A stretch of 64,000 bases of DNA from the human T2T-CHM13v2.0 reference genome, Homo sapiens: NCBI RefSeq assembly GCF_009914755.1, contig NC_060925.1. One strand, given 5' to 3'. This document shows, in pieces, positions 12,001 through 57,552 of this stretch (positions are counted from its first letter, which is position 1; each line of letters starts with the position of its first letter). A program made the translations under genes and the position numbers. Under the pieces are notes generated by a model, which saw nothing but the letters and a program-made list of their open reading frames with translations, did not search any database and was not told the origin of the DNA.

Positions 12001-12209
12001 TGTCTAGTTTTTCTGTGAAGATATTTCCTTTTCCAACATAGGCTTCAAATCGCTAGAAATATCCAATTGCAGATTCTAGGAAGGAAGGAATGTTCAAGGA
12101 AGGAAGGTTCAAGGAAGGAAGGAAGATTCAGAAGTAAGGTTCAACTCCTCAGAAGTTTAACTCCTCAGAAGACGGTTCAAAACTGCTCTCTCAGAAGGAA
12201 GGTTCAACT
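1..12209 (-). repeat. Alpha satellite array, diverged, with degenerate 3-mer/4-mer higher-order structure
   Basis: TTTCTGAGAATGCTTCTG and TTCAACTCTGTGAGTTGAATGCAC recur every ~170-171 bp. Four monomer classes are recognisable (D: ctttctaaagaagtg; A: agtagtgtttcagtactg; B: acagctctctcaacagg; C: ctctctcaaaaggaagg) in DABC/DAC order. Confidence 0.98.
12079..12166. other. Patchwork (templated) insertion next to inversion breakpoint
   Basis: The monomer is interrupted after gcagattcta by ggaaggaaggaatgttcaaggaaggaaggttcaaggaaggaaggaagattcagaagtaaggttcaactcctcagaagtttaactcctc, which is built from pieces of the adjacent tcagaaggaaggttcaact (12191-12209). Confidence 0.85.
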
Positions 12210-15200: not shown

Positions 15201-15997
15201 TTCTAGAATCTGCAAGTGTTCATTTGGAGCACTTTGAGGCGCACGGTGGAAAAGGAAATATCTTCACATAAAAACTAGGCGGAAGCATTATCAGAAACTT
15301 CTTTGTGATGTATGCATTCAACACACAGATTTGAACCTTCCTTTTGAGAGAGCAGTTTTGAAACAGTCTTTTTGTAGAATCTGCCATTGCATATTTGGAG
15401 TGATATGAAGCATATATTGGAAAAGGATACAAAATTCACAGGAAAACTAGACAAAAGTATTCTCAGGAACTTGTTTGTGATGTGTGCATTCAACTCAGAG
15501 AGCTGAACCTTCCTATTGAGAGAGCTGTTTTGAAACAATCTCTTTGTACGTTCTGCAAGTGGATATTTGGAGCGATTTCAGGCCTATGGTGTAAATGGAA
15601 ATATCTTCACATAAAAGTTTAACAGAAACATTTTCAGGAACTTGTTTGTGATGTGTGCATTCAGCTCACCGAGTTGAATATTTTTTTTTGATAGAGCAGT
15701 ACTGAAACACTACTTTTGTAGAACCTGATTGTGGATATTTGGAGCTCTTTGAGGACTTCATTGGAATCAACTTATCTTTAAATAAAAACTAGACAGAAGC
15801 ATTCTCAGAAACTGCTTTTTGATGTGTGAATTCAACTCAGAGAGTTTAACACTTCTTTAGAAAGAGAAGCTTTGAAACACTATTTTTCTAGAATCTGGAA
15901 GTGTTCATTTGGAGCGCTTTGTGGTTTTTGGTGGAAGAGGTAACAACTCCACATAAAAACTAGGCAGAAGCATTCTCAGAAACTTCTTTGTGATGTA
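12210..15997 (+). repeat. Inverted block of the same alpha satellite family (~22 monomers)
   Basis: Reads cattctcagaaac... on +. Same monomer classes in reverse complement (gagcagtactgaaacactact, aacacttctttagaaag, ccttcctgttgatagag). Confidence 0.97.
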
Positions 15998-24900: not shown

Positions 24901-27900
24901 TTCAAAACTGCTCTTTCTAAAGAAGTGTTCAACTCTGTGAGTTGAATGTACACATCACAGAGCATTTTCTGATAATGATTCTTTCAACCTTTTATGTGAA
25001 GATATTTTCTTTTCCACCATAGGCCTGAAACCGCTCCAAATATCCACTTGCAGATACTACAAATAGACTGTATCAAAACAGCTCTCTCAACAGGAATGTT
25101 CAAATCTGTCAGCTGAATGCACACATCACAAACTAGTTCCTGAGAGAGATTCTGTCTAGTGTTTCTGTGAAGATATTTCCTTTTGCAAAATAGGTTTCAA
25201 ATCACTCCAAATATCCACTTGCAGATTCTACCAAAAGACATTTTCGAAGCTTCTCTCTCAAAAGAAAGGTTCAACTCTGTGAGTTAAATGCGTACATCAC
25301 AAAGAAGTTTCTGAGAATGCTTCTGCCTAGTTTTTATGTGAAGATGTTTCCTTTTCCACCATAGGCCACAAAGCTCTCCAAATGAACACTTGCAGATAAC
25401 AGAAAAAGAGTGTTTGAAAACTGCTCTTCTAAAGAAGTGTTCAACTCTGTCAGTTGAATTCACTTATCACAAAGCAGTTTCTGAGAATGCTTCTGTCTAG
25501 TTGTTACTTGAAGATATCTCGTTTCCAAGGAAATCCTCAAAGAGCTCCAAATATCCACAAGCAGAATCTGCAAAAGTAGTGTTTCAGTACTGCTCTATGA
25601 AAAGAAATATTTTATTCTGTGAGTTGAATGCACACATCACAAAGCATTTTCTGAGAATGCTTCCGTCAAGCTTTTATGTGAAGATATTTCCTTTTCCACC
25701 ATAGGCCTGAATTCGCTCCAAATATCCACTTGCGGATCGTAAAAAGAGACTGTTTCCAAACAGCTCTTTCAACAGGAAGGTTCAACTCTGTGTGCTGAAT
25801 GCACACATCACAACCAAGTTCCTGAGAATGCTTCCTTCTAGTTTTTCTGTGAAGATATTTCCTTTTCCTTCATAGAATTCAAATCGCTCCAAATATCCAC
25901 TTGCAGATTCCACAAAAAGACTGTTTCAAAACTGCTCTCTCAAAAGGAAAGTTCAACTCTGTGAGTGGAATGCATACATCACAAATAAGTTTCTGAGAAT
26001 GCTTCTGCCTAGTTGTTATGTGAAGATGTTTCCTTTCCCAACATAGGCCTCAATGAGCTCCAAATGAACACTTGCAGGTACCAGAAAAAGAGTGTTTCAA
26101 AGCTGGTCTTTCTAAAGAAGTGTTCAACTCTCTGAGTTGAATTCACACATCTCAAATCAGTTTCTGAGAATGCTTCTGTCTATTTTTTATTTGAAGATTT
26201 TTCGTCTCCAACGAAATCCTCAAACAGCTCCAAATATCCACAAGTATATTCTACAAAAGTAGAGTTTCAGTATTGCGCTTTCAGAAGAAATGCTCAGCTC
26301 TGTGAGTTGAATGCACACATCACAAACAAGTTCCTGAGAATGCTTCTGTCTAGTTTTTCTGTGAAGATATTTCCTTTTCCAACATAGGTTTCAAATCGCT
26401 CCAAATATCCATTTGCAGATTCTACAAAAAGACTGTTTCAAAACTGCTCTCTCAAAAGGAGGTTTCAATTCTGTGAGTTGAATGCATACATCCCAAAAAA
26501 GTTTCTGAGAATGCTTCTGCCAAATTTTTATGTGAAAATGTTTCCTTTTCCACCATAGGCATCAAGGTGGTCGAAATGAACACTTGCAGATAATAGAGTG
26601 TTTCAATACTACTCTTTCTAAAGAAGTGTTCAACTCTCTGAGTTGAATTCACACATCACAAAGCAGTTTCTGAGAATGCTTCTGTCTAGTTTTTATTTGA
26701 AGTTATCTCGTTTCCAACGAAATCCTCAAACAGCTCCAAATATTCACAAGCAGATTCTACAAAAGTAGTGTTTCAGTACTGCTCTATCAAAAGAAATGTT
26801 CAACTCTGTGAGTTGAATGCACACTTCACAAAGCATTTTCCGAGAGTTCTTCTGTCAAGGTTTTATGCGAAGATATTTCCTTTTCCAACATAGGCATGAT
26901 ATCACTCCAAATATCCACTTGCAGATCCTACTAGGAGACCATTTCAAAACAGCTCTCTCAACAGGAAGATTCACCTCTGTGAGCTGAAGGCACACATCAC
27001 AAACTAATTCCTGAGAATGCTTCTGTCTAGTTTTTCTGTGAAGATATTTCCTTTTCCAACATTGGCTTCAAAGTACTACAAATATCCACCTGCAGGTTCT
27101 ACAAAAAGAGTGTTTCAAAACTGCTCTCTCAAAAGGAAAGCTCAACTCTGTGAGTTGAATGCGTACATCACAAAGAAGCTTCTGAGAATGCTTCTCCCTA
27201 GTTTTTATGTAAAGATGTTTCCTTTTCCACCTTAGGCTTCAAAGCACTCCAAATGAACACTTTCAGGTACTAGAAAAAGAGTGTTTCAAAACTGCTCTTT
27301 CTAAAGAAGTGTTGAACTCTCTGAGATGAATTCACACATCACAAAGCAGTTTCTGAGAATGCTTCTGTCTAGTTGTTATTTGAAGATATCTCGTTTCCAA
27401 CGAAATCCTCAAACAGCTCCAAATATCCACAAGCAGATTCTGCAAAAGTAGTGTTTCAGTACTGCTCTATGAAAAGAAATATTTTATTCTGTGAGTTGAA
27501 TGCACACATCACATAGCAGTTTCTGAGAATGCTTCTGTCAAGCTTTTATGTGAAGATATTTCCTTTGCAACATAGGCTTCAAATTGTTCCAAATATCCAC
27601 TTGCAGATCCTACAAAAAGACTGTTTCAAAACTGCTCTCTCAAAAGGAATTTTCAACTCTGTGAGTTGAATGCATACATCACAAAGAGGTTTCAGAGAAT
27701 GCTTTTGCCTAGTTTTTATGAGAAGATGTTTCCTTTACCACCGTAGGCCTCAAAACGGTCCATATGAACAATTGCAGATTTTTAAAAAAGAGTGTTTCTT
27801 AACTACTCTTTCTAAAGAAGTAGTCAACTCTCTGAGTTGAATTCACACATCACAAAGCAGTTTCTGATAATGCTTCTGTCTAGTTTTTATGTGAAGATAT

Positions 27901-30285
27901 TTCCTTTTCCACCTTATGCCTCAAGGCACTCAAAATGAACACTAGAAGATTGTAGAAAAAGAGTGTTTCAAAACTGCTCTTTAAAAAGTAACGTTCAAAT
28001 CTGTGAGTTGAATGCACACATCACAAAGCAGTTTCTGAGAATGCTTCTGTCAAATTTTCATGTGAAGATATTTTTGTTTCCACCATAGGCCTGAATTTGC
28101 TCCAAGTATCCACTTGCAGATCCTACAAAGAGACTGTTTCAAAACAGCTCTATGAAAAGGAAGGTTCAACCCTTTGAGTTGAATGCACACATTACCAAGC
28201 AGTTTCTGAGAATGCTTCTGTCGAATTTTTATGTGAAGATATTCCATTTCTAATGAAGGCCTCAAAGAACTCCAAATATTTACAAGCAGATACCGCAATG
28301 GGAGTGTTTCCAAGCTGCTCTATCAAAAGAAATGTTCAACTCTCTGAGTTGAATGCACACATCACTAAGCAGTTTCTGAGAACTCTTCTGACTAGTGTTT
28401 ATGTGAAGATATACCGTTTTCCACCAAAGGCCTCAAATCCTCTTAAATATCCACTTAAAGATTCCTCAAGAAGACTGTTTCAAAACTGCTCTGTCAAAAG
28501 GAAGATTCAACTCTGTGAGTTTTAGGCACACATCACCAAGAAGTTTCTGAGGATGCTTCTGTCTAATTTTTATTTGAAGATATTCCCTTTTCCACTATAT
28601 GCCTCAAAGCTCTCCAAATGAACACTAGAAGATTCTAGAAAAAGAGAGTTTCATAACTGCTCTTAAAAAAGAAATGTTCAACTCAGTGTGTTGAATGTGC
28701 ACATCACAAAGCAGTTTCTGAGAATGCTTCTGTCTGGTTTTTTGTGAAGATATCCAGTTTCCTACGAAGGCCTCAAAGACCTCCAAATATCCACAAGCAT
28801 ATTCTATAATAGGAGTGTTTCAAAACTGCTCTATCAAAAGAAAGGTTCAACTCTGTGAGTTGAATGGACACATCGCAAAGAAGTTTCTGAGAATGCTTCT
28901 GTCCAGTTTTTATGTGACGATATATCCTTTTCCACTATAGGCCTGATATCACTCCAAATTTCCACTTCTAGATCCTACAAAAAGACTGTTTCAAAACTGC
29001 TCTGTCAAAAGCAACGTTCAACTCTTTGAGTTTTAGAGACACATCAGAAAGAAGTTCCTGAGAATGCTTCTGTTTAGTTTTTATGTAAAAATATTTCCTT
29101 TTCCACCTTAGGCCTCTAAGTGCACTAACTGAACACTTGCAGCATATACAAAAAGAGTGTTTCAAAACTGCTTCATCAAAAGAAAAGTTCAACTCTGTGA
29201 GTTGAATGCACTCATCACAAAGCAGTTTCTGAGAATGCTTCTGACTAGTTTTTATCTGAAGTTATTCCCGTATCCAACGAAGTCCTCAAATATCTCCAAA
29301 TATCCACTAGCAGATTCTACAAAAGGAGTGTTTCAGAACTGCTCTATCAAAACGAAGATTCAACTCTGTGAGTTGAATGCGCACATCACAAAGAGGTTTC
29401 TGAGAAAGCTTAGGTCTAGTTTTTATGTGAAGATATTTCCTTTACCACCATAGGCCTGAAAGCCCTCCAAATGAACAGTTGCAGATTCTAGAAAAGGAGT
29501 GTTTCTAAACTGCTCCATCAAGCGAAATGTTCAACACTGTGAGTTGAATGCACACATCACAAAGTAGTTTCAGAGAATGCTTCTGTCCAGCTTTTATGTG
29601 AAGATATTTCCTTTTCCAACATAGGCCTCAAATCTCTCCAAATATCCACTTGCACATCCTACAAAGAGACTGTTTCAAAACAATTCTATGAACAGGAGGG
29701 TTCTACATTGTGAACTGAATGCACACATCATAAAGTAGTTTCTGAGAATGCTTCTGTCTAGTTTTTATGTGAAGTTATTTCCTTTTCCACCATAGGCCTC
29801 AAAGCTGTCCAAATGCAGATTCTAGAAAAAGAGTTTCTAAACTGCCCCATGAAAAGAAGTGTTCAACACTGTGAGTTGAATGCATACATCACAAAGCAGT
29901 TTCTAAGAATGCTTCTGTCTAGTTTTTATGTGAAGATGTTTCCTTTTCCACCACAGGCTTGAAATCGCTCCAAATATCTACTTGCAGATCCTACAAAGAG
30001 ACCGTTTCAAAACAGCTCTATCAACAGGAAGGTTCCACGCTGTGAGTTGAATGCACACATCACAAAGAAGCTCCTGAGAATGCTTCTGTCTAGTTTTTCT
30101 GTGAAGATATTTCCTTTTCCAACATAGGCTTAAAATCGCTCCAAATATCCACTTGCAGGTTCCACAAAATGACTGTTTCAAAACTGCTCTCTCAAAAGGA
30201 AGGTTCAACTCTGTGAGTTGAATGCATACATCACAAAGAAGTTTCTGAGAATGCTTCTGCCTAGTTTTTATGTGAAAATGTTTCC
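15998..30285 (-). repeat. Alpha satellite array; DABC/DAC family to ~27850, then transitional monomers
   Basis: 171-bp periodicity in the original orientation. The A-class monomer (agtagtgtttcagtactg) is last seen at ~27450-27470, after which monomers resemble the right-hand layer. Confidence 0.97.
29266..29282 (-). promoter_or_regulatory. CENP-B box (core intact)
   Basis: Reverse complement CTTCGTTGGATACGGGA fits NTTCGNNNNANNCGGGN. Confidence 0.8.
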
Positions 30286-30559
30286 AAAGTGGCCATTCAA
30301 CCCACGGGGTTGAACTTTTCTTTTGATAGAGCAGTTTTGAAACACTCCTTTTGTAGAACCTGCTTGTTGATATTTGGAGCTCTTTGAGGAGTTCATTGGA
30401 ATCGGCATATCTTCACAGAAAAACTTGACAGAAGCATTCTCAGAAACTTTTTGTGATGTGTGCATTCAACTCAAAGTGTTGAACATTGCTTTTGATAGAG
30501 CAGTTTTGAAACACTCCTTTTTTAGGATCTGCTAATGGATATTTAGATATTTTTGAGGC

Positions 30560-37731: not shown

Positions 37732-39450
37732 TATCTTCCCATAAAAATTAGACAGAAGCATTCTCAGAAACTTCTTTGGGATGTGTGTGTTCAAATCACA
37801 GAGTTGAACCTTTCTTTTGATAGAGCAGTTTTCAAACTATATTTTGTAGGATCTGGAAGTGGAAATTTGGAGTTATTTGAAGTGCATTTTGGAAAAGGAA
37901 ATATCTTCATATAAAAACTTGACAGAAGCATTCTCTGAAACTTCTTTGTGATGAGTGCATTCAACTCCTACCTTTGAAACTTTCCTTTGTTAGAACAGTT
38001 TTGAAAAACTCCTTTTGTAGAATCTGCTTGTGGATATTTGGAGCTCTTTGAGGCCTTCGTTGGAAACCGGATTTCTGCAAATAAAAACTAGACAGAAGCA
38101 TTATCAGAAACAGCTTTTTGATGTGTGCATTCAACTCACAGAGTTGAACCTTTCTTTTGATAGAGCCGTTTTGAAAAACTTTGTTGAATCTGCAAGTGTT
38201 CATTTGGAGGACTTTGAGGCCTATGATGGGAAAGGAAATATCTTCACATAAAAACTACACAGAAGCATTCTCAGAAACTTCTTTGTGATGTGTGCATTCA
38301 ACTCATAGAGTTGAACCTTCCTTTTCAGAGAACACTTTTGAAACAATCTTTTTGTAGAATCTGCAAGTGGATATTTCTAGCGCTTTGAGGCCTATGGTGG
38401 AAAAGGAAATATCTTCACATAAAAACTTGATGGAAGCATTATCAGAAACTTCTTTCTGATTTGTGCATTCGACTCACAGTGTTGAAACTTTCTTTTGATA
38501 CAGAAGTTTTGGAACACTCCTTTCGTAGAATCTGCTGGTGGATATTTGGAGCTCTTTGAGGCCTTCGTTGGAAAAGGGATATCTTCACATAAAAACTAGA
38601 CAGAAACTTTCTCGGAAACTGCTTTTTGACGTGTGCATTCAACTGACAGAGTTGAACTTTTTTTGTTAGAGCAGAAACACTTCTTTTCTAAAATCTGCTA
38701 TTGGATATTTGGAGATTTTTGGGGCCTTTGTTCAAAATGAGTATATATTCTCATAAAAACTAGACAGAAGCATTCTCAGAAAGTTCTTTGTGATCTGTGC
38801 ATTCAACTCACTGATTTGAACCTTCCTTTTGATAGAGCAGATTTCAAACAGTTTTTTGCAGAATCTGCAAGTGGATATTGGGAGCGATTTGAGGCCTATT
38901 GTGGAAAATTAAATATCTTCACATAAAAAGTAGACAGAAGCACTCTCAGAAACTTCTTTGTGATGTGTGCATTCAACTCACTGATTTGAACCGTTCTTTT
39001 GATAGAGCAGTTTTGAAACACTCTTTTTGAAGAAGCTGCAAGTGTTCATTTAGTGCGCTTTGAGGCCTATGGTGGAAAAGGAAATGTCTTCACATATAAA
39101 GTAGACAGAACCATTCTCAGAAACCACTTTGTGATGTGTGCCTTCAACTCACAGAGTTGAACCTTCCTTTTGACAGAGCAGTTTCGAAACAGTCTTCTTG
39201 TAGAATCTGCAAGTGGATATTTGGAACGATTTGAGGCCTATGGTGGAAAAGGGAATATCTTCACATAAAAACTGGACAGAAGCACTCTCTGATACCTCTT
39301 TGTGATGTGTGCAATCAACTCACAGTGTTGAACCTTTCTTTTGATAGAGCAGTTTTGAAACCCTCCTTTTGTAAAATCTGCTTGTGGATATTTGGAGCTC
39401 TTTGAGGCCTTCATTGGAAATGGGATATCTTCAAATAAAAACTAGACACA

Positions 39451-40355
39451 GGGTGGAGCAGCCAAGATGGCCGAATAGGGAGAGTTCCATTCTACAGCTC
39501 CCAGGGTGAACGATGCAGAAGAGGGGTGATTTCTGCATTTGCATCTGAGGTACCGTGTTCATCTCACTAGGTAGTGCCAGAGAGTGGGTGCAGGTTAGTG
39601 GGTGCGTGCACTGTGCACGAGCCAAAGTAGCAGGAGGCATTACCTCACTTGGGAAGCGCCAGGGTCAGGGAGTTCCCTTTCTTAGTCAAAGAAAGTGGTG
39701 ACAGACGGCACCTAGAAAATCGGGTCACTGCCACCCAAATACTGCACTTTTCCAATGGGCTTAAAATATGGTGCACCAGGAGATTATATCCTGCACAAGT
39801 CTTGGAGGGTCCTGCTCACACAGAGTGTCACTGATTGCTAGCACAGCAGCCTGAGATCAAACTGCAAGGCAGCAGCGAGGTTGGATAGGGCTCCCACCAT
39901 TGCCCAGGCTTGCTTAGGAAAACAAAGCCGATGGGAAGCTCGAACTGGGTGGAGCCCACCACAGCTCAAGGAGGCCTGCCTCCCTCTGTAGGCTCCACAT
40001 CTGGGGACAGGGCACAGAACAACAAAAAGACAGCAGTAATCTCTGCAGACTTAAATGTCCCTGTCTGACAGCTTTGAAGAGAGCATTGGTTCTCCCAGCA
40101 CACAGCTGGAGATCTGAGAACTGGCAGACAGCCTCCTCAAGTGGGTCCCTGACCCCTGACCCCCAAGCAGCCTAACTGGGAGGCACCCGCAAGCAGGGGA
40201 AGACTGACACCTCACACGGCTGGGTACTCCAACAGACCTGCAGCTGAGGGTCCTTTCTGTTAGAAGGGAAACTATCAAACAGAGAGGACATCCACACCAA
40301 AAACTCATCAGTACATCACCATCATCAAAGACCAAAAGTAGATAAAACCACAAAG
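39451..40355 (+). promoter_or_regulatory. L1 5'UTR internal promoter (YY1 site at 39461-39473; heavily mutated CpG island)
   Basis: gccaagatggccg YY1 motif near the 5' end. The ~905-bp UTR precedes the ORF1 ATG, and many CpGs are lost. Confidence 0.8.
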
Positions 40356-41351
40356 ATGGGGCAAAAACAGAACAGAAAAACTGGAAACTCTAAAAAGCAG
40401 AGCACCTCTCCTCCTCCAAAGGAATGCAGTTCCTCACCAGCAACGGAAAAAAGCTGGATGGAGAATGACTTTGAAGAGCTGAGAGAAGAAGACTTCAGAT
40501 GATCAAATTACTCTGAGCTACGGGAGGACATTCAAACCAAAGGCAAAGAAGTTGAAAACTTTGAAAAAAGTTTAGAAGAATGTATAACTAGAATAACGAA
40601 TACAGAGAAGTGCTTAAAGGAGCTGATGGAGCTGAAAACCAAGGCTTGAGAACTACATGAAGAATGCAGAAGCCTCAGGAGCCGATGCAATCAACTGGAA
40701 GAAAGGGTATCAGTGATGGAAGAGGAAGTGAATAAAATGAAGTGAGAAGGGAGGTTTAGAGAGAAAAGAATAAAGAGAAACGAGAAAAGCCTCCAATAAA
40801 TATGGGACTGTGTGAAAAGACCAAATCTACGTCTGACTGGTGCACCTGAAAGTGACAGGGAGAATGGAAACAAGTTGGAAAACACTCTGCAGGATATTAT
40901 TCAGGAGAACTTCCCCAATCTAGCAAGGCAGGCCAACATTCAGATTCAGGAAATACAGAGAATGCCAGAAAGATAATCCTCGAGAAAAGCAACCCCAAGA
41001 AACATAATTGTCAGATTCACCGAAGTTGAAATAAAGGAAAAAATGTTAAGGGCAGTCAGAGAGAAGGTCGGGTTACCACTAACAGCGGATCTCTCGGCAG
41101 AAACCCAACAAGCCAGAAGAGAGTGGGGGCCAATATTCAACATTCTTAAAAAAAAGAATTTTCAACCCAGAATTTCATATCCTGCCAAACTAAGTTTCAT
41201 AAGTGAAGGAGAAATAAAATACTTTACAGACAAGCAAATGCTGAGAGATTTTGTCACCACCAGGCCTGCCCTAAAAGAGCTCCTCAAGGAAGCGCTAAAC
41301 ATGGAAAGGAACAACCGGTATCTGCTGCTGCAAAATCATGCCAAAATGTAA
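40356..41351 (+). pseudogene. ORF1: L1 ORF1p (RNA-binding protein), disrupted
   Basis: ATG GGG CAA AAA CAG start and ...LLQNHAKM* end. Internal stops (e.g. TGA at 40500-40502) and 21 bp missing near 41060-41077 relative to the second copy. Confidence 0.93.
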
Positions 41352-41414
41352 AGACCATCAAGACTAGGAAGAAACTGCATGAACTAACGTGCAAAATAAC
41401 CAGCTAATATCAAA

Positions 41415-45243
<3,829 letters not shown>

Positions 45244-45294
45244 ACAGTGAGAACACATGGACACAGGAAGGGGAACATCACACTCTGGGAAATG

Positions 45295-45320
45295 TTGTGG
45301 GGTGGGGGGAGGGGGAAGGG
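45295..45320 (+). other. L1 3'UTR polypurine / G-quadruplex-forming tract
   Basis: ttgtggggtggggggagggggaaggg has four G-runs. Confidence 0.7.
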
Positions 45321-45471
45321 AGCACATTGGGAGATATAACTAATGCTAGATGACGAGTTAGTGGGTGCAGCGCACCAGCATGGCACATATATACATATGT
45401 AACTAACGTGCACATTGGCAACATGTACCCTAAAACTTAAAGTATAATAATTTAAAAAAAAAAATGAAAAA

Positions 45472-47193
45472 AAAAACTAGACAGAAGCATTCTCAGAAAC
45501 ATCTTTGCCATGTGTGCATTCAACTCACAGAGTTGAAACTTTCTTTTCATAGAGCAGTTTTGAAACACTCTTTTTGTAGAATCTGCAAGGGTTCATTTGG
45601 AGTGCTTTCAGGCATATGGTGGAAAATGAAATATCTTCAAATAAAGACTAGACAGAAGCATTCTCAGCGATTTCTTTGGGATGTATAGATTCAATTCACA
45701 GAGTTGAACCTTCCTTTTGATAGAGCAGTTTTGAAACAGTCTTTTTGTAGGATCTCCAAGTGGATATTTGGAGCGATTTGAGGCCTATGATAGAAAAGGA
45801 AATATATTCACATAAAAAGTTGACAGAAGCATTCTCAGAAACTTCTTTGTGATGTGTGCATTCAACTCACAGAATTGAAACTTTCTTTTTATAGAGCAGT
45901 TTTGAAACACCCCTTTTGTACTATCTGCTTGTGGATATTTGGAGCTCTTTGAGGCCTTCTTTGGAAACCGGATATCTTCAAATAAAAACTAGACAGAAGC
46001 ATTCACAGAAACTGCTTTCTGATGAGTGCCTTCAACTCACAGAGTTCAACCTTTCTTTTGATAGAGCAGTTTTCAAACACTCTTTTTGTAGAATTGGCAA
46101 GTGTTCATTTGGAGCGCTTTGAAGCCTATGGTGGAAAGGGAAATAGCTTCACATAAAAACTAGACAGAAGCATTCTCAGAAACTTCTTTGTAATGTGTGC
46201 ATTCAACTCACAGAGTGGATCCTTTCTTTTGACAGAGCATATTTGAAACAGTATTTTTATAGAATCTGCAAGTGGATATTTCGATTAACTTGAGGCCTGT
46301 GGAGGAAAAGGGAATATCTTCACATAAAAAGTAGAGAGAAGCATTCTCAGAAACTTCTTTGTGATGTGTGCATTCAACTCACAAACCTGAACTTTTCTTT
46401 TGATAGAGCAGTTTTGAAACACTCTTTTGTAGAAGCTGCAACTGTTCATTTAGTGCGCTTTAAGGCTAAGGTGGAAAAGGAAATATCTTCACATAAAATT
46501 TAGACAGAAGCATTCTGAAAAACTTCTTTGTGATCAGTGCCTACAACTCACAGAGTTGAACCTTCCTTCTGGCAGAGCAGTTTTGAAACAGTCTATTTGT
46601 AGGATCTGCAAGTGGATATTTGGAGAGATTTGAGGCCTAGGGTGAAAAAGGGAATATCTTCACATAACAACTTGACAGAAGGATTCTCAGAAACTTCTTA
46701 GTGATGTGTGCATTCACCTCACAGAGTTGAACATTTCTTTTGATAGAGCAGTTCTGAAACACTCCTTTTGGAGAATCTGCTAGTGGATATTTGGGCATTT
46801 TTGAGGCCTTCGTTGGAAACGGGAATATCTTCACATAAAAGCTAGTCAGAAGGATTCTCAGAAACTGCTTTGTGATTTGTGCTTTCAACTTACAGAGTTG
46901 AACCTTTCTTTTGATAGAGCAGTTTTGAAACACTCTTTTTGTAGAATCTGCAAGTGTTCGTTTGGAGGGCTTTGAGGCCTATTGTGGAGAAGGAAATATC
47001 TTCACATAAAAACTAGACAGAAGTGTTCTCAGAAACTTCTTTTTGATGTGTGCATTTAACTCACAGAGTTGAAATTTCCTTTTGATATAGCAGTTTTCAC
47101 ACAGTCTTTTGTAGAATTTGCAAGTGAATATTTGGAGCGATTTGAGGTCTATGGTGGAAAAGGAAATATTTTCACATAAAAACTAGACAGAAG
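45472..47193 (+). repeat. Ten-monomer alpha satellite spacer between the two L1s
   Basis: 1706 bp separate equivalent aaaaactagacagaag positions (45472 and 47178). Includes an intact CENP-B box at 46808-46824. Confidence 0.95.
46808..46824 (+). promoter_or_regulatory. CENP-B box (canonical), between the L1s
   Basis: CTTCGTTGGAAACGGGA. Confidence 0.9.
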
Positions 47194-48100
47194 AGGGGAG
47201 GAGCCAAGATGGCCGAATAGGAACAGCTCCGGTCTACAGCTCCCAGTGTGAGCGACGCAGAAGACAGGTGATTTCTGCATTTCCAACTGAGGTACCGAGT
47301 TCATCTCACCAGGGAGTGCCAGACAGTGGGCGCAGGTCAGTGGGTGCGTGCACCATACGCGAGCTGAAGCATGGAGAGGCATTGCCTCACTTGGGAAGTG
47401 CAAGGAGTCAGGGAGTTCACTTCCCAAGTCAAAGAAAGGGGTGATGGACAGCATCTGGAAAATCGGGTCACTCCCACCAGAATACTGCGCTTTTCTGACG
47501 GGCTTAAAAAACGGCGCACCACGAGAGTATATCCCGTACCTGGCTCAGAGGGTCCTATGCCCACAGAGTATCGCTGATTGCTAGCAGGGCAGTCTGAGAT
47601 CAAACTGCAAGGCGGCAGTGAGGCTGGGGGAGGGACACTCGCCATTGTCCAGGCTTGATTAGGTAAACAAAGCAGATAGGAAGCTGGAACTGGGTGGAGC
47701 CCACCACAGCTCAAGGAGGCCTGCCTGCCTCTGTAGGCTCCACCTCTGGGGACAGGGCACAGACAAACAAAAAGACAGCAGTAACCTCTGCAGACTTAAA
47801 TGTCCCTGTCTGACAGCTTTGAAGAGAGCAGTGGTTCTCTCAGCACACAATTGGAGATCTGAGAACTGGCAGACTGCCTCCTCAAGTAGGTCCCTGACCC
47901 CTGACCCCCGAGCAGCCTAACTGTGAGGCGCCCCCCAGCAGGAGCACACTGACACTTCACAGGGCAGGGTATTCCAACAGACCTGCAGCTGAGGGTTCTG
48001 TCTGTTAGAAGGAAAACTAACAAACAGAAAGGACATCCACACCAAAAACCCATCTGTACATCACCATCACCAAAGACCAAAAGTAGATAAAACCACAAAG
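47194..48100 (+). promoter_or_regulatory. L1 5'UTR sense/antisense promoter region (YY1 site at 47203-47215)
   Basis: Intact gccaagatggccg; ~907-bp UTR before the ORF1 ATG at 48101. Confidence 0.8.
47337..47645 (-). CDS. ORF0: L1 antisense ORF0-like reading frame, open (102 aa from ATG at 47645)
   Basis: MASVPPPASLPPCSLISDCPASNQRYSVGIGPSEPGTGYTLVVRRFLSPSEKRSILVGVTRFSRC... matches primate L1 ORF0 (MAGAPPPASLPPCSLISDCCASNQRDSVGVGPSEPG...). There is no evidence of expression from sequence alone. Confidence 0.6.
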   Translation of the reverse strand: MASVPPPASLPPCSLISDCPASNQRYSVGIGPSEPGTGYTLVVRRFLSPSEKRSILVGVTRFSRCCPSPLSLTWEVNSLTPCTSQVRQCLSMLQLAYGARTH

Positions 48101-49116
48101 ATGGGGCAAAAACAGAACAGAAAAACTGGAAACTCTAAAAAGCAGAGCGCCTCTCCTCCTCCAAAGGAACGCAGTTCCTCACCAGCAATGGAACAAAGCT
48201 GGATGGAGAATGACTTTGACGAGCTGAGAGAAGAAGGCTTCAGACACTCAAATTACTCTGAGCTACAGGAGGAAATTAAAATCAAAGGCAAAGAAGTTGA
48301 AAACTTTGAAAAAAATTTAGAAGAATGTATAACTAGAGTAACAAATACAGAGAAGTGCTTAAAGGAGCTGATGGAGCTGAAAACCAAGGCTCGAGAACTA
48401 CATGAAGAATGCAGAAGCCTCAAGAGCCGATGCGATCAACTGGAAGAAAGGGTATCAGCAATGGAAGATGAAATGAATGAAATGAAGCGAGAAGTAAAGT
48501 TTAGAGAAAAAAGAATAAAAAGAAATGGCAAAGCCTCCAAGAAATACGGGACTATGTGAAAAGACCAAATCTACGTCTGATTGGTGTAGCTGAAAGTGAT
48601 GGGGAGAATGGAACCAAGTTGGAAAACACTCTGCAGGATATTATCCAGGAGAACTTCCCCAATCTAGCAAGGCAGGCCAATGTTCAGATTCAGGAAATAC
48701 AGAGAATGCCACAAAGATACTCCTCGCGAAGAGCAACTCCAAGACACATAATTGTCAGATTCACAAAAGTTGAAATGTAGGAAAAAATGTTAAGGGCAGC
48801 CAGAGAGAAAGGTCGGGTTACCCTCAAAGGGAAGTCCATCAGACTAACAGAGGATCTCTTGGCAGAAACCCTACAAGCCAGAAGAGAGTGGGGGCCAATA
48901 TTCAACATTCTTAAAGAAAATAATTTTCAACCCAGAATTTCATATCCTGCCAAACTAAGTTTCATAAGTGAAGGAGAAATAAAATACTTTACAGACAAGC
49001 AAATGCTGAGAGATTTTGTCACCACCAGGCCTGCCCTAAAAGAGCTCCTGAAGGAAGCACTAAACATGGAAAGGAACAACCGGTACCAGCTGCTGCAAAA
49101 TCATGCCAAAATGTAA
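48101..49116 (+). pseudogene. ORF1: L1 ORF1p, disrupted
   Basis: MGQKQNRKTGNSKKQSASPPPKERSSSP coiled-coil N-terminus. A 1-bp deletion near 48528 and TAG at 48778-48780 split it into three ORFs. Confidence 0.95.
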
Positions 49117-49179
49117 AGACCATCGAGACTAGGAAGAAACTGCATCAACTAACAAGCAAAATAACCAGCTAACATCATA

Positions 49180-52931
<3,752 letters not shown>

Positions 52932-52980
52932 ACAATGAGAACACATGGACACAGGAAGGGGAACATCACACTCTGGGGAC

Positions 52981-53008
52981 TGTTGTGGGGTGGGGGGAGG
53001 CGGGAGGG
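52981..53008 (+). other. L1 3'UTR polypurine / G-quadruplex-forming tract
   Basis: tgttgtggggtggggggaggcgggaggg. Confidence 0.65.
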
Positions 53009-54831
53009 ATAGCATTGGGAAACATACCTAATGCTAGATGACGAGTTAGTGGGTGCAGCGCACCAGCATGGCACATGTATGCATATGTAACTAGCCTCCA
53101 AAATGTGCACATGTACCCTAAAATTTAAAGTATAATAATAATTTAAAAAAGAAAAAAAAAACTAGACAGAAGCATTCTCAGGAACAATTTTGTGATGTGT
53201 GCATTCAAATCACAGAGTTGAACCTTCCTTTTGATATAGCTGTTTGAAACAGTCTCTTTGTAGGATCTGCAAGTGGATATTTGGAGCGATTTGCGGCCTA
53301 TGGTGGTAAAGGAAATTTCTTCACAGAAAAACATGACTGATGCATTCTCAGTAACTTCTTTGTGATGGGTGCATTCAACTCACAACGTTGAACATTTCTT
53401 TTGGTAGAGCACTTTTGAAACACTCCTTTTGTAGCATCTGCTAGTGGATATTTGGATGTCTTTGGGGCCTTCGTTGGAAAAGGGAATATCTTCACAAAAA
53501 ACTAGACGGAAGCATTCTCAGAAACTTCCTTGTGATGTGTACATTCAACTCACAGAGTTGAACCTTCCTTTTGAGAATAGCAGTCTTGAAACAGTCCTTT
53601 TGTGGGATCTGCTTGTGGATATTTGGAGCTCTTTGAGTCCTTCATTGGAAACGGGATATCTTCAAATGCAAACTAGAGAGAAGCATTCTTAGAAACTGCC
53701 TTTTGATGTGTGCATTCAACTCAAAGAGTAGAACGTTTCTTTTGATAGAGCAGTTTTGAAACACCCTTTTTGTAGAATCTGCAAGTGTTTATTTGGAGCT
53801 CTTGGAGGCTTATGGTGGAAAAGGAAATATCTTTACATAAAAACTAGACAGAAGCATTCTCAGAAAGTTCTTTGTGATGTGACCATTCACCTCGCAGGGT
53901 TAAACCTTTCATTTGTTAGAGCAGTTTTGAAACACTCCTTTTGAATAATCTGCTAGTGGATATTTGGAGCTCTTTGAGGTCTTCGTTGAAAACGGGGTGT
54001 CTTCACATAAAAACTAGACAGAAGCATTCTCAGAAACTGCTTTGTGAAGGGTGCATTCAACACACAGAGTTGAAACTTTCTCTTGATAGAGCAGTTTTGA
54101 AACACTCTTTTTGTAGAATCTGCAAGTGTTCATTTGGAGCTCTTTGAGGCCTATGGTGGAAAAGGAAATATCTTTACATAAAAACTAGAAAGAAGCATTC
54201 TCAGAAACTTCTTTGTGATGTGTGCATTCACCTCACAGAGTTGAACATTTCTTTTGACAGAGCAGTTTTGAAACACTCATTTTGTGGAATGTGTTTGTAA
54301 ATATTTGGAGCTCTTTGAGGCCTTAGTTGGAAATGGGATATCTTCACGTAAAAACTTGACAGAAGAATTCTCAGAAACTTCTTTGTGATGTGTGCATTCA
54401 ACTCACAGATTTGAACCTTTCTTTTAATGGAGCAGTTTTGAAAGAGTCTTTTCGTTGAATCTGCAGTGTTCATTTGGAGCGCTTTGAGGCCTATGGCAGA
54501 AAAGGAAATATCTTCACATAAAAACTAGACGGAAACATTGTCAGAAACTTTTTTGTGATGTGCTCATTCAGCTCACAGAATTGAACGTTCCTTTTGATCG
54601 AGCAGTTTTGAAACAGTCTTTTTGCAGGATCTGCAAGTGAACATTTGGAGCGATTGGAGGCCTATGGTGGAAAAGGGAATATCTTCACATAAGAGCTAGT
54701 CCGAAGAGTTCTCAGAAACGGCTTTGTAACGTTTGCATTCAACTGACAGTGTTGAGCCTTTCTTTTGATAGAGCAGATTTGAGACACTCCTATTGTGGAA
54801 TCTGCTTGTAAATATTTGGAGCTTTTGAGGA

Positions 54832-54848
54832 CTTCGTTGGAAACGGGA
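54832..54848 (+). promoter_or_regulatory. CENP-B box (canonical)
   Basis: CTTCGTTGGAAACGGGA. Confidence 0.9.
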
Positions 54849-57552
54849 TATCTTCACATAAAAACTAGACAGAAACATTCTCAGAAACTGCTTTGTGATG
54901 TGTGCATTCAACTCGCAGACTTGAACATTTCTTTTCATAGAGCAGCACTGAAAGACTACTTTTGTAGAATCTGCTTGTGGATATTTGGAGCTGTTTGAGG
55001 TTTTTGTTGGAAAGGGGATATCTTCACATAAAAACTAGACAGAAGCTTTCTCAGAAACTGTTTTGTGATCTGTGCACTCAACTCACAGAATTGAAACTTT
55101 CTTTTCTTAGAGCAGTTTTGAAGCACTCTTTTTGTAGAATCTTCAAGTGTTCACTTGGAGCGCTTAGAGGTGTATCATGGAAAAGGAAATAACTTCACAT
55201 AAAAACTAGACAGAAGCATTCTAAGAATCTTCTTTGTGATGTGTGCATTCAACCCACAGAGTTGAACCTTCCTATTGATAGAGCAGTTTTGAAACCGTCT
55301 TTTTGTAGGATCTGCAAGTGGATATTTGGAGCGATTTCCAGACTATGGTGAAAAAGGAAATATCTTCACACAAAAAGTTGACAGAAGCATTCTCAGAAAC
55401 TGCTTTGTGATGTGTGCATTCAACTCACAGACTGGAACACTTCTTTTGATAGAGCAGTACTGAAACACTACTTTGGTAGAATCTGCTCGTGGATATTTGG
55501 AGCTGTTTGAGGTTTTCGTTGGAAACAGGATATCTTCACATAAAAATTAGAAGCATTCTCAGAAACTGCTTTGTGATGTGTGCACTCAACTCACAGATTT
55601 GAATGTTTGTTTTGATAGAGCAGTGTTGAAACACTCTTTTTGTAGAATCTTCAAGTGTTCATTTGGAGAGCTTTGAGGCGTATTTTGGAAAAGGAAATAA
55701 CTTCACATAAAACTAGACAGAAGCATTCTCAGAAACGTCTTTGTGATGTGTGCATTCAACTCACAGAGTTGAACCTTCCTTTTGATAGAGCAATTTTGAA
55801 ACAGTCTCTTTGTGGGATCTAGAAGTGGAAATTTGGAGTGATTTGAGGCCTATGGTGGAAAAGGAAATATTTTCACATAAAAACTAGACAGAAGCATTCT
55901 CAGAAACTTCTTTGTGATGTAAGCATTCAACTCAAATTGTTGAACCTTCCTTTTGGGAGAGCAGTTTTGAAACAGTCTATTTGTAGGATCTGCAAGTGGA
56001 TATTTGGAGAGATTTGAGGCCTATGGTGAAAAAGGAAATATCTTCACATAACAACTTGACAGAAGGATTCTCAGAAACTTCTTTGTGACGTGTGCCTACA
56101 ACTCACAGTGCTGAACCTTCATTTTGAAATAGCAGTTTTGAAATAGTCCTCTTGTAGAATATCCAATTGGATATTTAGAATGATTTGAGGCCTATGGTGG
56201 AAAAGGTAATATCTTCACATAAAAAATAGTCAGAAGAGTTCTCAGAAACTGCTTTGTGATGTATGCATTCAACTCACAGAGTTGAACATTCTTTTGACAG
56301 AGCAGTTTTGAAACACTCCTATTGTGGAATCTGCTTTAAATATTAGTAGGTCTTTGAGGCCTTCGTTGGAAACCGGACATCTTCACATAAATCTTGACAG
56401 AAGCATTCTCAGAAACTGCTTTTTGGTGTGTGCATTCAACTCAAAGAGTTGAATATTTCCTTTTATGGAGCAGTTTTGAAACACTCTTTTTCTAGAATCT
56501 GGAAGTGTTCATTTGGAGCGCTTTGAGGCCTACGGTGGAAAAGGCAATATCTTCACATAAAAACTAGGCAGAAGCATTCTCAGAAACTTCTTTGTGATGT
56601 GTGCATTCAACGCAGAGAGTTGAACATTCCCTTTGATAGAGCAGATTGAAACACTCCTTTTGTAGTATCTGGTAGTGGATATATGGAGGTTTTTGAGGCC
56701 GTCGTTGGAAACGGGAATATCTTCAGATAAAAACTAGTCAGAAGCATTCTCAGAAAGTGCTTTGTGAGTAGTGCATTCAACTCACAGAGTTGAACTTTTC
56801 TTTTGATACAGCAGTTTCGAAACACTCTTTTTGTAGAATATGCAAGTGTTCATTTGGAGCGCTTTGAGGCCTATTGTGGAAAAGGAAATATCTTCACATA
56901 AAAACTAGACAGAAGCATTCTCAGAAACTTCTTTGTGATGTGGACATTCAACTCAGAGAGATGAACATTTCCTTTTACAGAGCAGTACTGAATCACTACT
57001 TTTGTAGAATCTGCTTGTGGATATTTGGAGCTGTTTGGGGATTTTGTTAGAAACGGGATATCTTCAAATAAAAACTAGACAGAAGCATTCTCAGAAACTG
57101 CTTTGTGAAGTGTGCACTCAATTCACAGATTTGAACCTTTCCTTTGAAAGAGGAGTTTTGAAACACTCTTTTTGTAGTATCTTCAAGTGTTCATTCATAG
57201 CGCTTTGAGGCATATGGTAGAAAAGGAAATAACTTCACATAAAAACTTGACAGAATCATTCTCAGAAACTTCTTTATGATGTGTGTATTCAACTCACAGA
57301 GTTGAACCTTCCTTTGATAGAGCAGTTTTGAAACAGTGTTTTTGTAGGACCTAGAAGTGGAAATTTGGAGTGATTTGAGGCCTATGGTGGAAAAGGAAAT
57401 ATCTTCACATAAAGAGTAGACAGAAGCATTCTCAGAAAGTCCTTTGTGACTTGTCTCTTCAACTCACAGAGTTGAATCTTTCTTTTGATAGAGCAGTTTT
57501 GAAACACTCCTTTTGCAGAATCTGCTTGTGGATATTTGGAGCTCTTTGAGGC

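What the first reader, a model, noticed from the sequence alone, without database searches (positions are those of the whole stretch)
40007..53156. The two dead L1s share an inactivating frameshift, tail signature and many private bases: possible recombinational spread or concerted evolution of L1 within alpha satellite
Seen: both are 1 bp short at the same ORF2 site (cacctcta-gcaaat at 42671; cacctcta-acaaat at 50361; recalled consensus CACCTCTACGCAAAT), a frameshift upstream of the RT. Both tails read ...aataatttaaaaaa..gaaaaaaaaa. Bases shared by both that differ from the L1PA2/3/HS consensus as I recall it, not at CpG transitions: ggggAcagg (40007/47752), gaacTggc (40122/47867), ORF1 MGQK (40362/48107), ccTgcc and aagTttc (41183, 41195 / 48948, 48960), caccAag (41780/49476), ccaAccc (41969/49665), gacCca (42259/49949), atgTcc (42326/50016), aagTca (44002/51690), atgCtgc (44221/51909). 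Established: L1 cis-preference makes retrotransposition of an ORF2-frameshifted copy inefficient. Inference: since the flanking monomers differ, either a dead L1 was copied between equivalent monomer positions by homology-driven repair (homing-like spread using the 171-bp register), or independent insertions were homogenised by gene conversion, or a centromere-resident lineage was mobilised in trans.
Basis: partly seen in the sequence, partly recalled or inferred. Interest (0 to 1): 0.8.

Follow-up and report, generated by a model that had tools for sequence, protein, structure and literature searches.

The report
Sister dead L1s in alpha satellite
Two broken L1 retrotransposons lying ten satellite repeats apart near the chromosome 1 centromere are copies of one already-broken element, but the satellite DNA around them was not copied, so how the copy was made remains open.

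Summary
L1-A (39450-45471) and L1-B (47194-53156) are full-length, + strand, and sit at the same position of two alpha monomers.

- **Shared variants:** across the full length they share 26 states that at least 5 of 6 arm L1 copies lack. I read 15 as non-CpG and 7 as transversions.
- **Shared break:** both lack one ORF2 base that all 54 arm copies have. It is their only shared ORF-breaking indel.
- **Not chance:** in 3.5 kb they share 9 rare non-CpG states. None of 1,539 other pairs exceeds 4.
- **Age of the split:** they are only about 94.7% alike, and most arm copies are closer to each than they are to one another. The shared branch is short (about 0.004) and the private branches long (0.038 and 0.026).
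- **Flanks:** monomers in register are 70-88% identical, which is array background. A segmental duplication is therefore rejected, and the copied unit is the L1 alone.

The tail signature occurs in 105 L1s genome-wide, and the target site is reused by unrelated insertions on chr6 and chr20.

The mechanism is unresolved. My odds are DNA-level, L1-bounded recombination about 0.5 and local trans-retrotransposition about 0.2. Ape orthologues would decide.

The parts
39437..39448 (+). 5' target-site copy of L1-A (AAAAACTAGACA, then C). It is shorter than, or altered relative to, the copy at B.
39450..45471 (+). L1-A, a full-length young L1PA element. The 5'UTR is 906 bp and the ORF1 ATG is at 40356. 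Nine of its 11 indel events lie downstream of the ORF1 start, and it has 4 private nonsense changes. The tail reads TTT-A11-TG-A(n).
42670..42671 (+). Shared 1-bp gap in ORF2 of L1-A. It creates an in-frame TAG upstream of the reverse-transcriptase part.
45472..45487 (+). 3' target-site copy of L1-A (AAAAACTAGACAGAAG).
45472..47193 (+). Spacer of about 10 alpha monomers between the two L1s. In register with the outer flanks it is 70-88% identical, which is array background.
47178..47193 (+). 5' target-site copy of L1-B (AAAAACTAGACAGAAG).
47194..53156 (+). L1-B, a full-length young L1PA element. The ORF1 ATG is at 48101. It has 5 indel events, including a 69-bp deletion at 49325, and 4 private nonsense changes. 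The tail reads TTT-A6-G-A(n).
50360..50361 (+). The same 1-bp gap in ORF2 of L1-B. It creates an in-frame TAA.
53157..53172 (+). 3' target-site copy of L1-B.
37743..39436 (+). Left alpha flank of L1-A. It is not a copy of the spacer: identity anchored at the L1 5' ends is 70-84%.
53173..54874 (+). Right alpha flank of L1-B. It is not a copy of the spacer: identity anchored at the L1 3' ends is 77-88%.

Best explanation
Shown. One L1PA3-type element had been decaying in this static monomeric alpha array long enough to gain about 15 non-CpG changes and a 1-bp ORF2 deletion. It then came to occupy two sites ten monomers apart through a single early event whose boundaries are the L1 itself. Since then each copy has decayed on its own, by 2-3% at non-CpG sites and about twice as fast as arm copies.

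Inferred. I judge the event most likely to have acted on DNA, as recombination confined to L1 homology. Two forms are possible:
(a) A second full-length L1 had inserted independently at the same, recurrently used endonuclease site of a nearby monomer. It was then overwritten along its whole length by non-allelic gene conversion from its 7.7-kb neighbour. My odds are about 0.3.
(b) A break or stalled fork at that site in an empty monomer was repaired by copying L1 plus target-site repeat from the occupied monomer, using the conserved 16-18 bp motif. My odds are about 0.2.
For: Sister status:
- 26 shared states were found over the full length, against at least 5 of 6 arm copies. I read 15 as non-CpG and 7 as transversions.
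- 9 rare shared non-CpG states lie in 3,496 sites, against a maximum of 4 in 1,539 other pairs.
- The tree splits {A,B} from the 54 others with support 95/73.
- The 28-mer carrying 41183T and 41195T occurs genome-wide only in A, B and 4 old L1s that are 74-90% identical to A.

The copied template was already dead:
- The 1-bp gap is the only indel shared, out of 11 events in A and 5 in B.
- Shared coding changes are 13 nonsynonymous to 6 synonymous. The private branches give 118:43 and 76:26.

The copy is bounded by the L1:
- Spacer monomers in register are 77-88% and 70-84% identical to the outer flanks, below their best matches elsewhere in the window (87.6-92.3%).
- No spacer monomer has a match of 93% or more anywhere in the window. 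The array's monomer relationships therefore look older than the A-B split.

One early event:
- A-B divergence is fairly even along the element, and the longest identical run is 163 bp.
- The shared branch is about 0.004 and the private branches 0.038 and 0.026.

A DNA-level route is favoured on these grounds:
- The copies are 7.7 kb apart. Gene conversion among neighbouring Alus is reported to act within about 10 kb (PMC8230782, passages).
- At the time the two L1s would have offered 6 kb of near-identity, whereas the alpha flanks offer about 83%.
- L1 is not known to reinsert locally (recalled, not from a call).
- Coincidence of site is cheap. The same junctions were used independently on chr6 and chr20.
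Against: - A conversion tract must span at least 5.2 kb, from marker 39822 to marker 45011. That is far longer than usual tracts (recalled).
- No mosaic boundary is seen.
- Form (a) needs two full-length, same-strand, same-site insertions within 8 kb.
- Form (b) needs repair across about 83%-identical monomers or a double template switch. The array shows no other sign of exchange since the split.
- The 5' junctions differ (A ...GACAC|AGGGT, B ...GACAGAAG|AGGGG). This fits separate second-strand cuts better than a DNA copy of one junction.
- At 56 subfamily-level polymorphic non-CpG sites, A and B disagree at 13 of 53. That is no better than A or B against random arm copies (means 15.0 and 14.6). 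Well-supported arm sister pairs show 6-11 of 56, so these sites seem hypervariable.
- Two nearby truncated L1s that are clearly retrotransposition products share the rare 44221C allele. This could mean a locally reinserting RNA lineage.
Confidence: 0.5

Rival explanations
1. Local retrotransposition in trans. RNA from the resident, ORF2-dead L1 was reverse-transcribed by another L1's ORF2 protein at a nearby alpha monomer. A read-through transcript would carry ...A(n)CUAGACAG at its 3' end. That end is complementary to the nicked target (…CTGTCTAGTTTTT-3'), which would fix both register and tail, as read-through does for site-specific LINEs such as R1 and R2.
For: - Both copies look like complete target-primed insertions, each with its own target-site repeats and A-tail.
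- The copy unit is exactly the transcript.
- The 5' junctions differ, as expected for separate second-strand cuts.
- The template had intact ORF1 and only one ORF2 lesion when copied.
- Trans-complementation of defective L1 RNA is documented (PMC5860796, passages).
- Two nearby twin-primed L1 fragments share 44221C. That allele has 57 exact 29-mer matches, against 10,979 for the common allele.
Against: - Cis-preference makes such events rare (PMC5860796, passages).
- No local reinsertion bias is known for L1 (recalled). A landing 7.7 kb from the parent in a 3.1-Gb genome is extremely unlikely without a new local mechanism.
- The shared tail does not support it, because 103 other L1s have that tail.
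- The link to fragments C and D rests on one transversion plus one CpG site.
Confidence: 0.2
2. An ordinary tandem or segmental duplication of L1 plus flanking monomers, whose flank identity was later erased by satellite turnover.
For: - The two L1s have the same orientation and lie 7.7 kb apart.
- BLAST diagonals run through the flanks.
Against: - The diagonal alignments exist only because all alpha monomers align with each other. Of 185 alignments of the spacer of 1,500 bp or more, the in-register ones are not among the 40 best, and the best reaches 84.8%.
- In-register identity per monomer is 70-88%, whereas the L1 bodies are about 94.7% identical.
- No spacer monomer has a match of 93% or more in the window that could be a later donor.
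Confidence: 0.05
3. Two independent insertions from one source element elsewhere. The shared states are that source's private variants, and the ORF2 gap arose twice or was moved by a short conversion.
For: - The tail is a lineage trait.
- The target site is a hot spot.
- The same 1-bp gap occurs in one unrelated copy on chr2, which shares none of the 13 other A/B states it could be scored for.
Against: - No other progeny and no source with the double marker exists in this genome.
- Two hits from one distant source within 8 kb are very unlikely.
- A live source would not be expected to carry 13 nonsynonymous to 6 synonymous changes.
- The gap was found in 1 other place by exact 29-mer.
- There is no identical tract around the gap. 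A and B differ 26 bp before it, 1 bp after it and 28 bp after it.
Confidence: 0.07
4. The pairing is an artefact: long-branch attraction or chance coincidence between two fast-decaying copies.
For: - A and B have the two longest branches in the tree.
- They are further from each other than from most arm copies. 51 of 54 arm copies are closer to A than B is, and 54 of 54 are closer to B than A is.
- They are no more alike than random pairs at polymorphic sites.
Against: - They share 9 rare non-CpG states where about 2.3 sites are expected to be hit in both copies, with any base. No other pair exceeds 4.
- Several of the shared states are transversions.
- They share an indel.
- The linked pair 41183T and 41195T is unique among young L1s genome-wide.
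Confidence: 0.03

Closest known systems
Non-allelic (ectopic) gene conversion between neighbouring transposable-element copies. For Alu it is reported to act within about 10 kb (PMC8230782, passages read).
   Same: Two same-family elements less than 10 kb apart share private variants while their flanks are unrelated. A dead copy can overwrite another, which that paper calls 'life after death'.
   Different: Here the shared variants span at least 5.2 kb of a 6-kb element with no visible tract boundary. Known cases are short and partial, by my recollection. No pre-conversion state is observed.
Trans-complementation of defective L1 RNA (PMC5860796, passages read; the Wei et al. 2001 assay is recalled).
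   Same: The template had lost ORF2 before it was copied, and the copy is bounded like a transcript with target-site repeats and an A-tail.
   Different: Known trans events land anywhere in the genome. This one would have landed 10 monomers from its parent at the same register.
Site preference of L1 insertion in alphoid DNA (Laurent et al., Genomics 1997). I saw only the title, in the reference list of PMC4594642; the paper is not held.
   Same: Both L1s, plus an Alu and an L1 on chr6 and a poly(A) insert on chr20, use the same ...AT|AAAAACTAGACAG site of the monomer.
   Different: Site preference explains the register but not the shared private variants.
Transposable elements amplified as part of satellite or composite repeat units in T2T centromeres (recalled from the T2T repeat papers; not read here).
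   Same: An L1 appears more than once inside a satellite array.
   Different: In those cases the flanking satellite is co-amplified. Here it is not.
Site-specific non-LTR elements R1, R2 and Tx1, whose read-through 3' sequence pairs with the target (recalled).
   Same: This would be the working principle of the RNA-homing reading: the same junction and the same register.
   Different: L1 has no known sequence-specific targeting, and nothing here shows a read-through transcript.

Membership tests
Young primate L1 (L1PA2-L1PA4 range), full length | Canonical 5' end (G-run then AGGAGCCAAGATGGCCGAATAGG), ORF1, ORF2, 3'UTR and A-tail; about 6.0 kb. | tested here: met
   A is 6,022 bp and B is 5,963 bp. 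They align end to end with six arm copies of 6,016-6,045 bp at 93.1-93.7% identity to A. The nearest arm copies are 97% identical over 601 bp. No Dfam or RepeatMasker label was available, so 'L1PA3-type' is my inference from branch lengths and the short 906-bp 5'UTR. The link between 5'UTR length and subfamily is recalled.
Target-primed (TPRT) insertion | Target-site duplication beginning in an A-run after a T, a 3' A-tail, and no extra flank. | tested here: met
   Both copies are flanked by AAAAACTAGACA(GAAG), preceded by AT. A-tails precede the 3' copy.
Segmental or tandem duplication | Flanking sequence is co-duplicated at the same identity as the element. | tested here: not met
   Flanks in register are 70-88% identical, whereas the L1 bodies are about 94.7% identical. 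Monomers elsewhere in the window match better.
Private clade of L1 copies (identity by descent after subfamily origin) | Shared derived states that are rare in all other copies, including transversions and indels. | tested here: met
   9 rare shared non-CpG states against a maximum of 4 in 1,539 other pairs. The 1-bp gap is in 0 of 54 arm copies. The double-marker 28-mer is unique among young L1s. The tree split has support 95/73.
Non-allelic gene conversion | A tract with boundaries inside the homologous region, and a mosaic of converted and unconverted parts. | tested here: inconclusive
   Shared markers run from 39822 to 45011 with no gap. The longest identical run is 163 bp, P about 0.009. 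No boundary is seen. A whole-element tract cannot be told from common descent.
Non-allelic gene conversion | An earlier state in which the recipient differed from the donor. | not testable with these tools
   This needs ape orthologues, and no ape assembly is held.
Trans-mobilised defective L1 | The inactivating lesion predates the copy event. | tested here: met
   The gap is shared and is the only shared ORF-breaking indel. No shared nonsense change was found.
Trans-mobilised defective L1 | The daughter has its own tail and target-site duplication, distinct from the parent's. | tested here: inconclusive
   The 5' junctions differ by a 3-nt indel and substitutions. The tails differ only in A-run length. 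The shared TTT...G part is lineage-encoded.

The most novel reading that the evidence does not exclude
A dead, centromere-resident L1 'homed' into the same register of a neighbouring alpha monomer without taking its flanks along. One route is a locally retained read-through RNA whose 3' alpha sequence pairs with the nicked target, which would be R1/R2-like guided priming by the L1 machinery in trans. The other is templated repair at the conserved 16-18 bp motif. Either way, satellite periodicity would give a LINE a copy route that does not need its own proteins. The rare 44221C allele shared with two nearby twin-primed fragments would then mark a locally propagating lineage.
Probability: 0.3. 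Interest if true: 0.75.

Novelty: new variant of a known kind. Interest (0 to 1): 0.45.

Why it matters
Dating of pericentromeric satellite layers, and L1 phylogenies in general, assume that each L1 copy is an independent insertion that decays alone. Here one element was copied after it had died and without its flanks, inside a satellite array that otherwise looks frozen. If this happened by conversion, whole 6-kb elements can be overwritten by a neighbour, which would distort age estimates. If it happened by RNA or by templated repair into an empty monomer, satellite periodicity itself offers mobile elements a homing route. The locus can be tested directly in the ape T2T assemblies. It is one old event, so the general weight is modest.

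Tried and rejected
- **Segmental duplication.** I tested it by global alignment of the two units, by aligning the spacer against the whole window, and monomer by monomer in and out of register. It is rejected.
- **More clade members.** Single-marker k-mers are too common to be useful: 41969A has 94 places and 44221C has 57. Three candidates were checked.
  - The chrX copy carrying 44002T and 44221C differs from the arm majority at 68 of 1,260 columns (5.4%). It lacks the gap, 43017C and 43680A, so I take it as a chance match.
  - The chr2 copy with the same gap shares none of the 13 other A/B states it could be scored for.
  - The pattern combining 42259C and 42326T found only A. B has a mismatch in the typed flank, so that search says nothing.
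- **The poly(A) junction search.** Two of its 4 extra hits are natural alpha variants with a longer A-run, not insertions.
- **dN/dS on the shared branch.** It gives 13:6, but by my own hand count (no script) 7:5 once the CpG sites are set aside. That has no power.
- **Discordance at polymorphic sites.** It looked like evidence against sisterhood, but well-supported arm sister pairs show the same excess.
- **Fetching more full-length arm copies.** Full-length comparisons therefore rest on 6 arm copies, and the chrX, chr6 and C/D copies were seen only in part.
- **Papers.**
  - PMC10415145: the passages read held nothing on insertion sites in alpha satellite.
  - Laurent 1997 is not held.
  - None of my five searches was specific to this locus. 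I therefore cannot say whether the pair is in print.
  - I did not open any supplements.
Full report
**What is there.** The window is chr1:126,728,001-126,792,000 of T2T-CHM13 (hub note). It is monomeric alpha satellite in which neighbouring monomers are about 78-85% identical. Two A-rich, + strand blocks stand out in the composition profile.

They are two full-length L1s.
- L1-A runs from 39450 to 45471, with its ORF1 ATG at 40356.
- L1-B runs from 47194 to 53156, with its ORF1 ATG at 48101.
- Each is flanked by the alpha motif AAAAACTAGACA(GAAG) on both sides and ends in an A-tail.
- Between them lie 1,722 bp, about ten monomers. Both therefore sit at the same position of the monomer in the same orientation.

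I drew L1 copies from the same genome with the genome search.
- I collected 58 further loci around the best matches to a 601-bp ORF2 piece of A and of B.
- I dropped three truncated loci (L023, L040, L059), leaving 54 arm copies aligned over 3.6 kb.
- I also fetched six arm copies at full length.

Both A and B lack one base at 42670/71 and 50360/61 that all 54 arm copies have. The loss makes an in-frame TAG in A and TAA in B.

- Seven are present in 0 or 1 of the 54 arm copies: 41183T, 41195T, 41969A, 42259C, 42326T, 44002T and 44221C.
- Two are present in 0 of the 6 full-length arm copies: 40007A and 40362C.
- 40122T differs from a 5-of-6 arm majority.
- The eleventh, 41780A, is present in 13 of 54 and is an ordinary polymorphism.

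One search listed 38 columns where A and B agree against the arm majority. The first 19 of them (40900-40919) are a ragged-end artefact and I set them aside.

Over the full length there are 26 shared states against at least 5 of 6 arm copies. I read 15 as non-CpG and 7 as transversions.

**Is it more than chance?** A and B have the longest branches in the set, so coincidence and long-branch attraction must be considered.
- Counting only non-CpG sites and only states carried by at most one further sequence, A and B share 9 in 3,496 sites.
- About 2.3 sites are expected to be hit in both copies, with any base.
- None of the 1,539 other pairs exceeds 4.
- A or B paired with an arm copy averages 0.54.
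- The maximum-likelihood tree puts A and B on one side of a branch of about 0.004, with bootstrap 95 and SH-aLRT 73. That bootstrap had not settled when the search ended.
- The 28-mer holding both 41183T and 41195T occurs in the whole genome only in A, B and four old L1s that are 74-90% identical to A.

The pair is real.

**A short shared history and a long separate one.** A and B differ at 5.25% of 3,522 aligned sites.
- 51 of 54 arm copies are closer to A than B is, and 54 of 54 are closer to B than A is.
- Neither element appears among the 40 best genomic matches of the other.
- Terminal branches are 0.038 for A and 0.026 for B, against a median of 0.015 for arm copies.
- Non-CpG divergence from the arm majority is 3.2% for A and 2.1% for B. 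Arm copies have a median of 1.23% and a range of 0.69-2.12%.
- Transitions do not outnumber transversions as they do in arm copies: the ratio is 0.87 in A, 1.06 in B and 1.31 in arm copies.

A 1.1- to 4.1-fold higher mutation rate has been reported for the 1-2 Mb next to alpha HOR arrays (PMC11062924, abstract and passages). That fits the 1.7- to 2.6-fold excess seen here.

Each copy has gone on to collect its own lesions.
- A has 11 indel events and B has 5. Only the 1-bp gap is common to both.
- Each has 4 private nonsense changes.

The common ancestor therefore had one ORF2 lesion and, as far as I can see, an open ORF1.

**What it is not.**
- *Not a segmental or tandem duplication.* BLAST diagonals run from the L1s into the flanks, but only because every alpha monomer aligns with every other. 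Of 185 alignments of the spacer of 1,500 bp or more, the in-register ones are not among the 40 best, and the best reaches 84.8%. Monomer by monomer, the spacer is 77-88% identical to the right flank of B when anchored at the L1 3' ends. It is 70-84% identical to the left flank of A when anchored at the 5' ends. Both figures are below the best matches elsewhere in the window, which are 87.6-92.3%.
- *No later satellite exchange is visible.* No spacer monomer has a match of 93% or more in the window, while the L1 bodies are about 94.7% alike. The monomer relationships visible in the window therefore look older than the A-B split, and nothing shows later exchange among monomers.
- *Not patchwise recent conversion.* A-B divergence is fairly even along the element. 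The longest identical run is 163 bp (43357-43521), against a simulated mean of 100 and a 95th percentile of 137, giving P about 0.009.

**Two clues that do not carry weight.**

*The tail.* The signature ...TATAAT(AAT)n-TTT-A(6-11)-G-A(n) is found at 105 places in the genome, A and B included. One of them is arm copy L071 on chr15, which has none of the rare A/B states. It is a 3' end encoded by a source lineage, not a mark of one insertion.

*The target site.* A search for ten A followed by the same 18 alpha bases found 4 other places.
- One is an Alu on chr6.
- One is another poly(A) insert on chr20.
- Two are natural alpha variants.

A search for the 5' junction found one further full-length L1, at chr6:61.17 Mb. 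It joins ...AAACTAGACAGAAG to the L1 start exactly as B does, but has no gap and no TTT tail.

The L1 machinery has therefore used AT|AAAAACTAGACAG repeatedly. [quoted passage not shown] I saw that title only in a reference list, and the paper is not held.

**The gap recurs, but rarely.** An exact 29-mer search found it in A, B and one copy on chr2. That copy shares none of the 13 other A/B states it could be scored for.

**A check that could have contradicted sisterhood.** At 56 non-CpG sites where at least 5 of 54 arm copies carry a minor allele, A and B disagree at 13 of 53.
- A against arm copies averages 15.0, and 24 of 54 arm copies are as close or closer to A than B is.
- B against arm copies averages 14.6, and 27 of 54 are as close or closer.
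- Well-supported arm sister pairs disagree at 6-11 of 56 although they differ by only about 3% overall.

By that yardstick these sites are several-fold hypervariable, and A-B is not unusual. I still list it as evidence against.

**Mechanism.** What has to be explained:
- one early event;
- a template that was already dead;
- copy boundaries at the L1 or its target-site repeats;
- the same register and strand;
- a spacing of 7.7 kb;
- a satellite array that is otherwise static.

*(a) Conversion of an independent neighbour.* A second full-length L1 inserted independently at the hot-spot site and was then overwritten by its neighbour through non-allelic gene conversion. Two young L1s would offer 6 kb of near-identity at a distance where conversion among Alus is reported to act, about 10 kb (PMC8230782, passages). 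The cost is a tract of at least 5.2 kb and the coincidence of two full-length, same-strand, same-site insertions.

*(b) Templated copy into an empty monomer.* A break or stalled fork at the site in an empty monomer was repaired from the occupied monomer, using the conserved motif. The cost is repair across about 83% identity or a double template switch. The two 5' junctions also differ.

*(c) Trans-mobilisation.* RNA of the dead copy was reverse-transcribed in trans. Both copies look like complete target-primed insertions, and trans-complementation is documented (PMC5860796, passages). However, L1 is not known to reinsert locally, which I state from recall. A read-through RNA ending in alpha sequence could pair with the nicked target and fix the register. 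That is inference only.

I put DNA-level copying (a plus b) at about 0.5, route (c) at about 0.2, and the remaining alternatives together at about 0.15. The rest is unassigned.

The shared coding changes are 13 nonsynonymous to 6 synonymous, and one indel accompanies about 15 substitutions. The shared branch thus looks like neutral decay of a resident copy rather than evolution of a live source. The numbers are small.

**An unexplained neighbour effect.** The 29-mer with 44221C has 57 exact matches in the genome, against 10,979 for the common allele. Four of the 57 lie within 95 kb of each other: A, B and two fragments.
- Fragment C begins about 300 bp beyond the window end. It lies in alpha satellite at another site and in the other orientation.
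- Fragment D lies about 70 kb further on, inside an Alu.

Both are 5'-inverted, truncated L1s with different break points, which makes them independent retrotransposition products. They share with A and B only 44221C and the CpG change 45011T. Either short conversion tracts pass between L1s up to 90 kb apart, or a local lineage reinserted nearby.

Other hits in both single-marker lists also come in close pairs on chromosome arms, by my inspection of the coordinates.

**Comparison with what is known, and verdict.** The parts are ordinary: young L1PA elements, target-primed insertions and a preferred site in alpha monomers. The tail and the target-site duplication are not special. What remains unusual is a whole, already broken L1 present twice with unrelated flanks. 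That resembles known gene conversion between neighbouring repeats, or trans-mobilisation, but in a form (whole element, same satellite register) that I did not find described. None of my five searches was specific to this locus. I rate it a new variant of a known kind, of moderate interest, and directly testable in ape T2T assemblies.

Noticed in passing
L075 306-1350 (chr1:126,792,306-126,793,350, just beyond the window end) and L076 1012-2131 (chr1:126,861,211-126,862,330): Two truncated, 5'-inverted (twin-primed) L1 fragments lie near the pair, one in alpha satellite at another site and strand and one inside an Alu. Both carry the rare 44221C allele that A and B have. Genome-wide that allele has 57 exact 29-mer matches, against 10,979 for the common allele.
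   Followed up: partly
genome-wide lists: By my inspection of the listed coordinates (no script), copies carrying a given rare L1 variant (41969A or 44221C) often lie in pairs or triplets within 5-300 kb. Examples are chr20:30.56/30.82/30.85 Mb, chr10:21.125/21.130 Mb, chr15:15.16/15.20 Mb, chr8:72.73/72.76 Mb and chrX:107.68/107.69 Mb. My rough estimate is that random scatter would give about 0.3 such pairs per list. Segmental duplication, conversion between neighbours or local reinsertion could each cause this.
   Followed up: no
window 39450-45471 and 47194-53156: Both L1s have decayed 1.7-2.6 times faster at non-CpG sites than 54 arm copies of the same kind. Transversions are in excess: the ts/tv ratio is 0.87 and 1.06, against 1.31 in arm copies.
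   Followed up: partly
window about 12,100-16,000 and about 30,300: The alpha satellite changes strand. A block at 12206-15997 is inverted relative to its neighbours, and the array switches orientation again near 30,290. This shows as GC-skew sign changes and as minus-strand self-alignments.
   Followed up: no
window 16,008-30,285: Self-alignments of this block are better at offsets of 512, 683, 1195 and 1365 bp (80.6-82.6%) than at 171, 339 or 852 bp (about 78%). This suggests an old periodicity of three or four monomers.
   Followed up: no
window 38925-39448 vs 45472-45995: The three monomers just left of L1-A and the three just right of it are 87.8% identical. That is the best alpha-to-alpha match of 500 bp or more in the window. 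It is probably old local array structure around the insertion site.
   Followed up: no
L082/L083 (chr6:61.175 and 61.178 Mb): An unrelated full-length L1 on chr6 has the same 5' junction with alpha satellite as L1-B. The sequence after its A-tail is not alpha satellite, which may be a 3' transduction or a rearrangement.
   Followed up: partly
window 43357-43521: A and B are identical over a 163-bp run, which is longer than expected (P about 0.009). It could be a small later conversion tract or a slowly changing stretch.
   Followed up: partly
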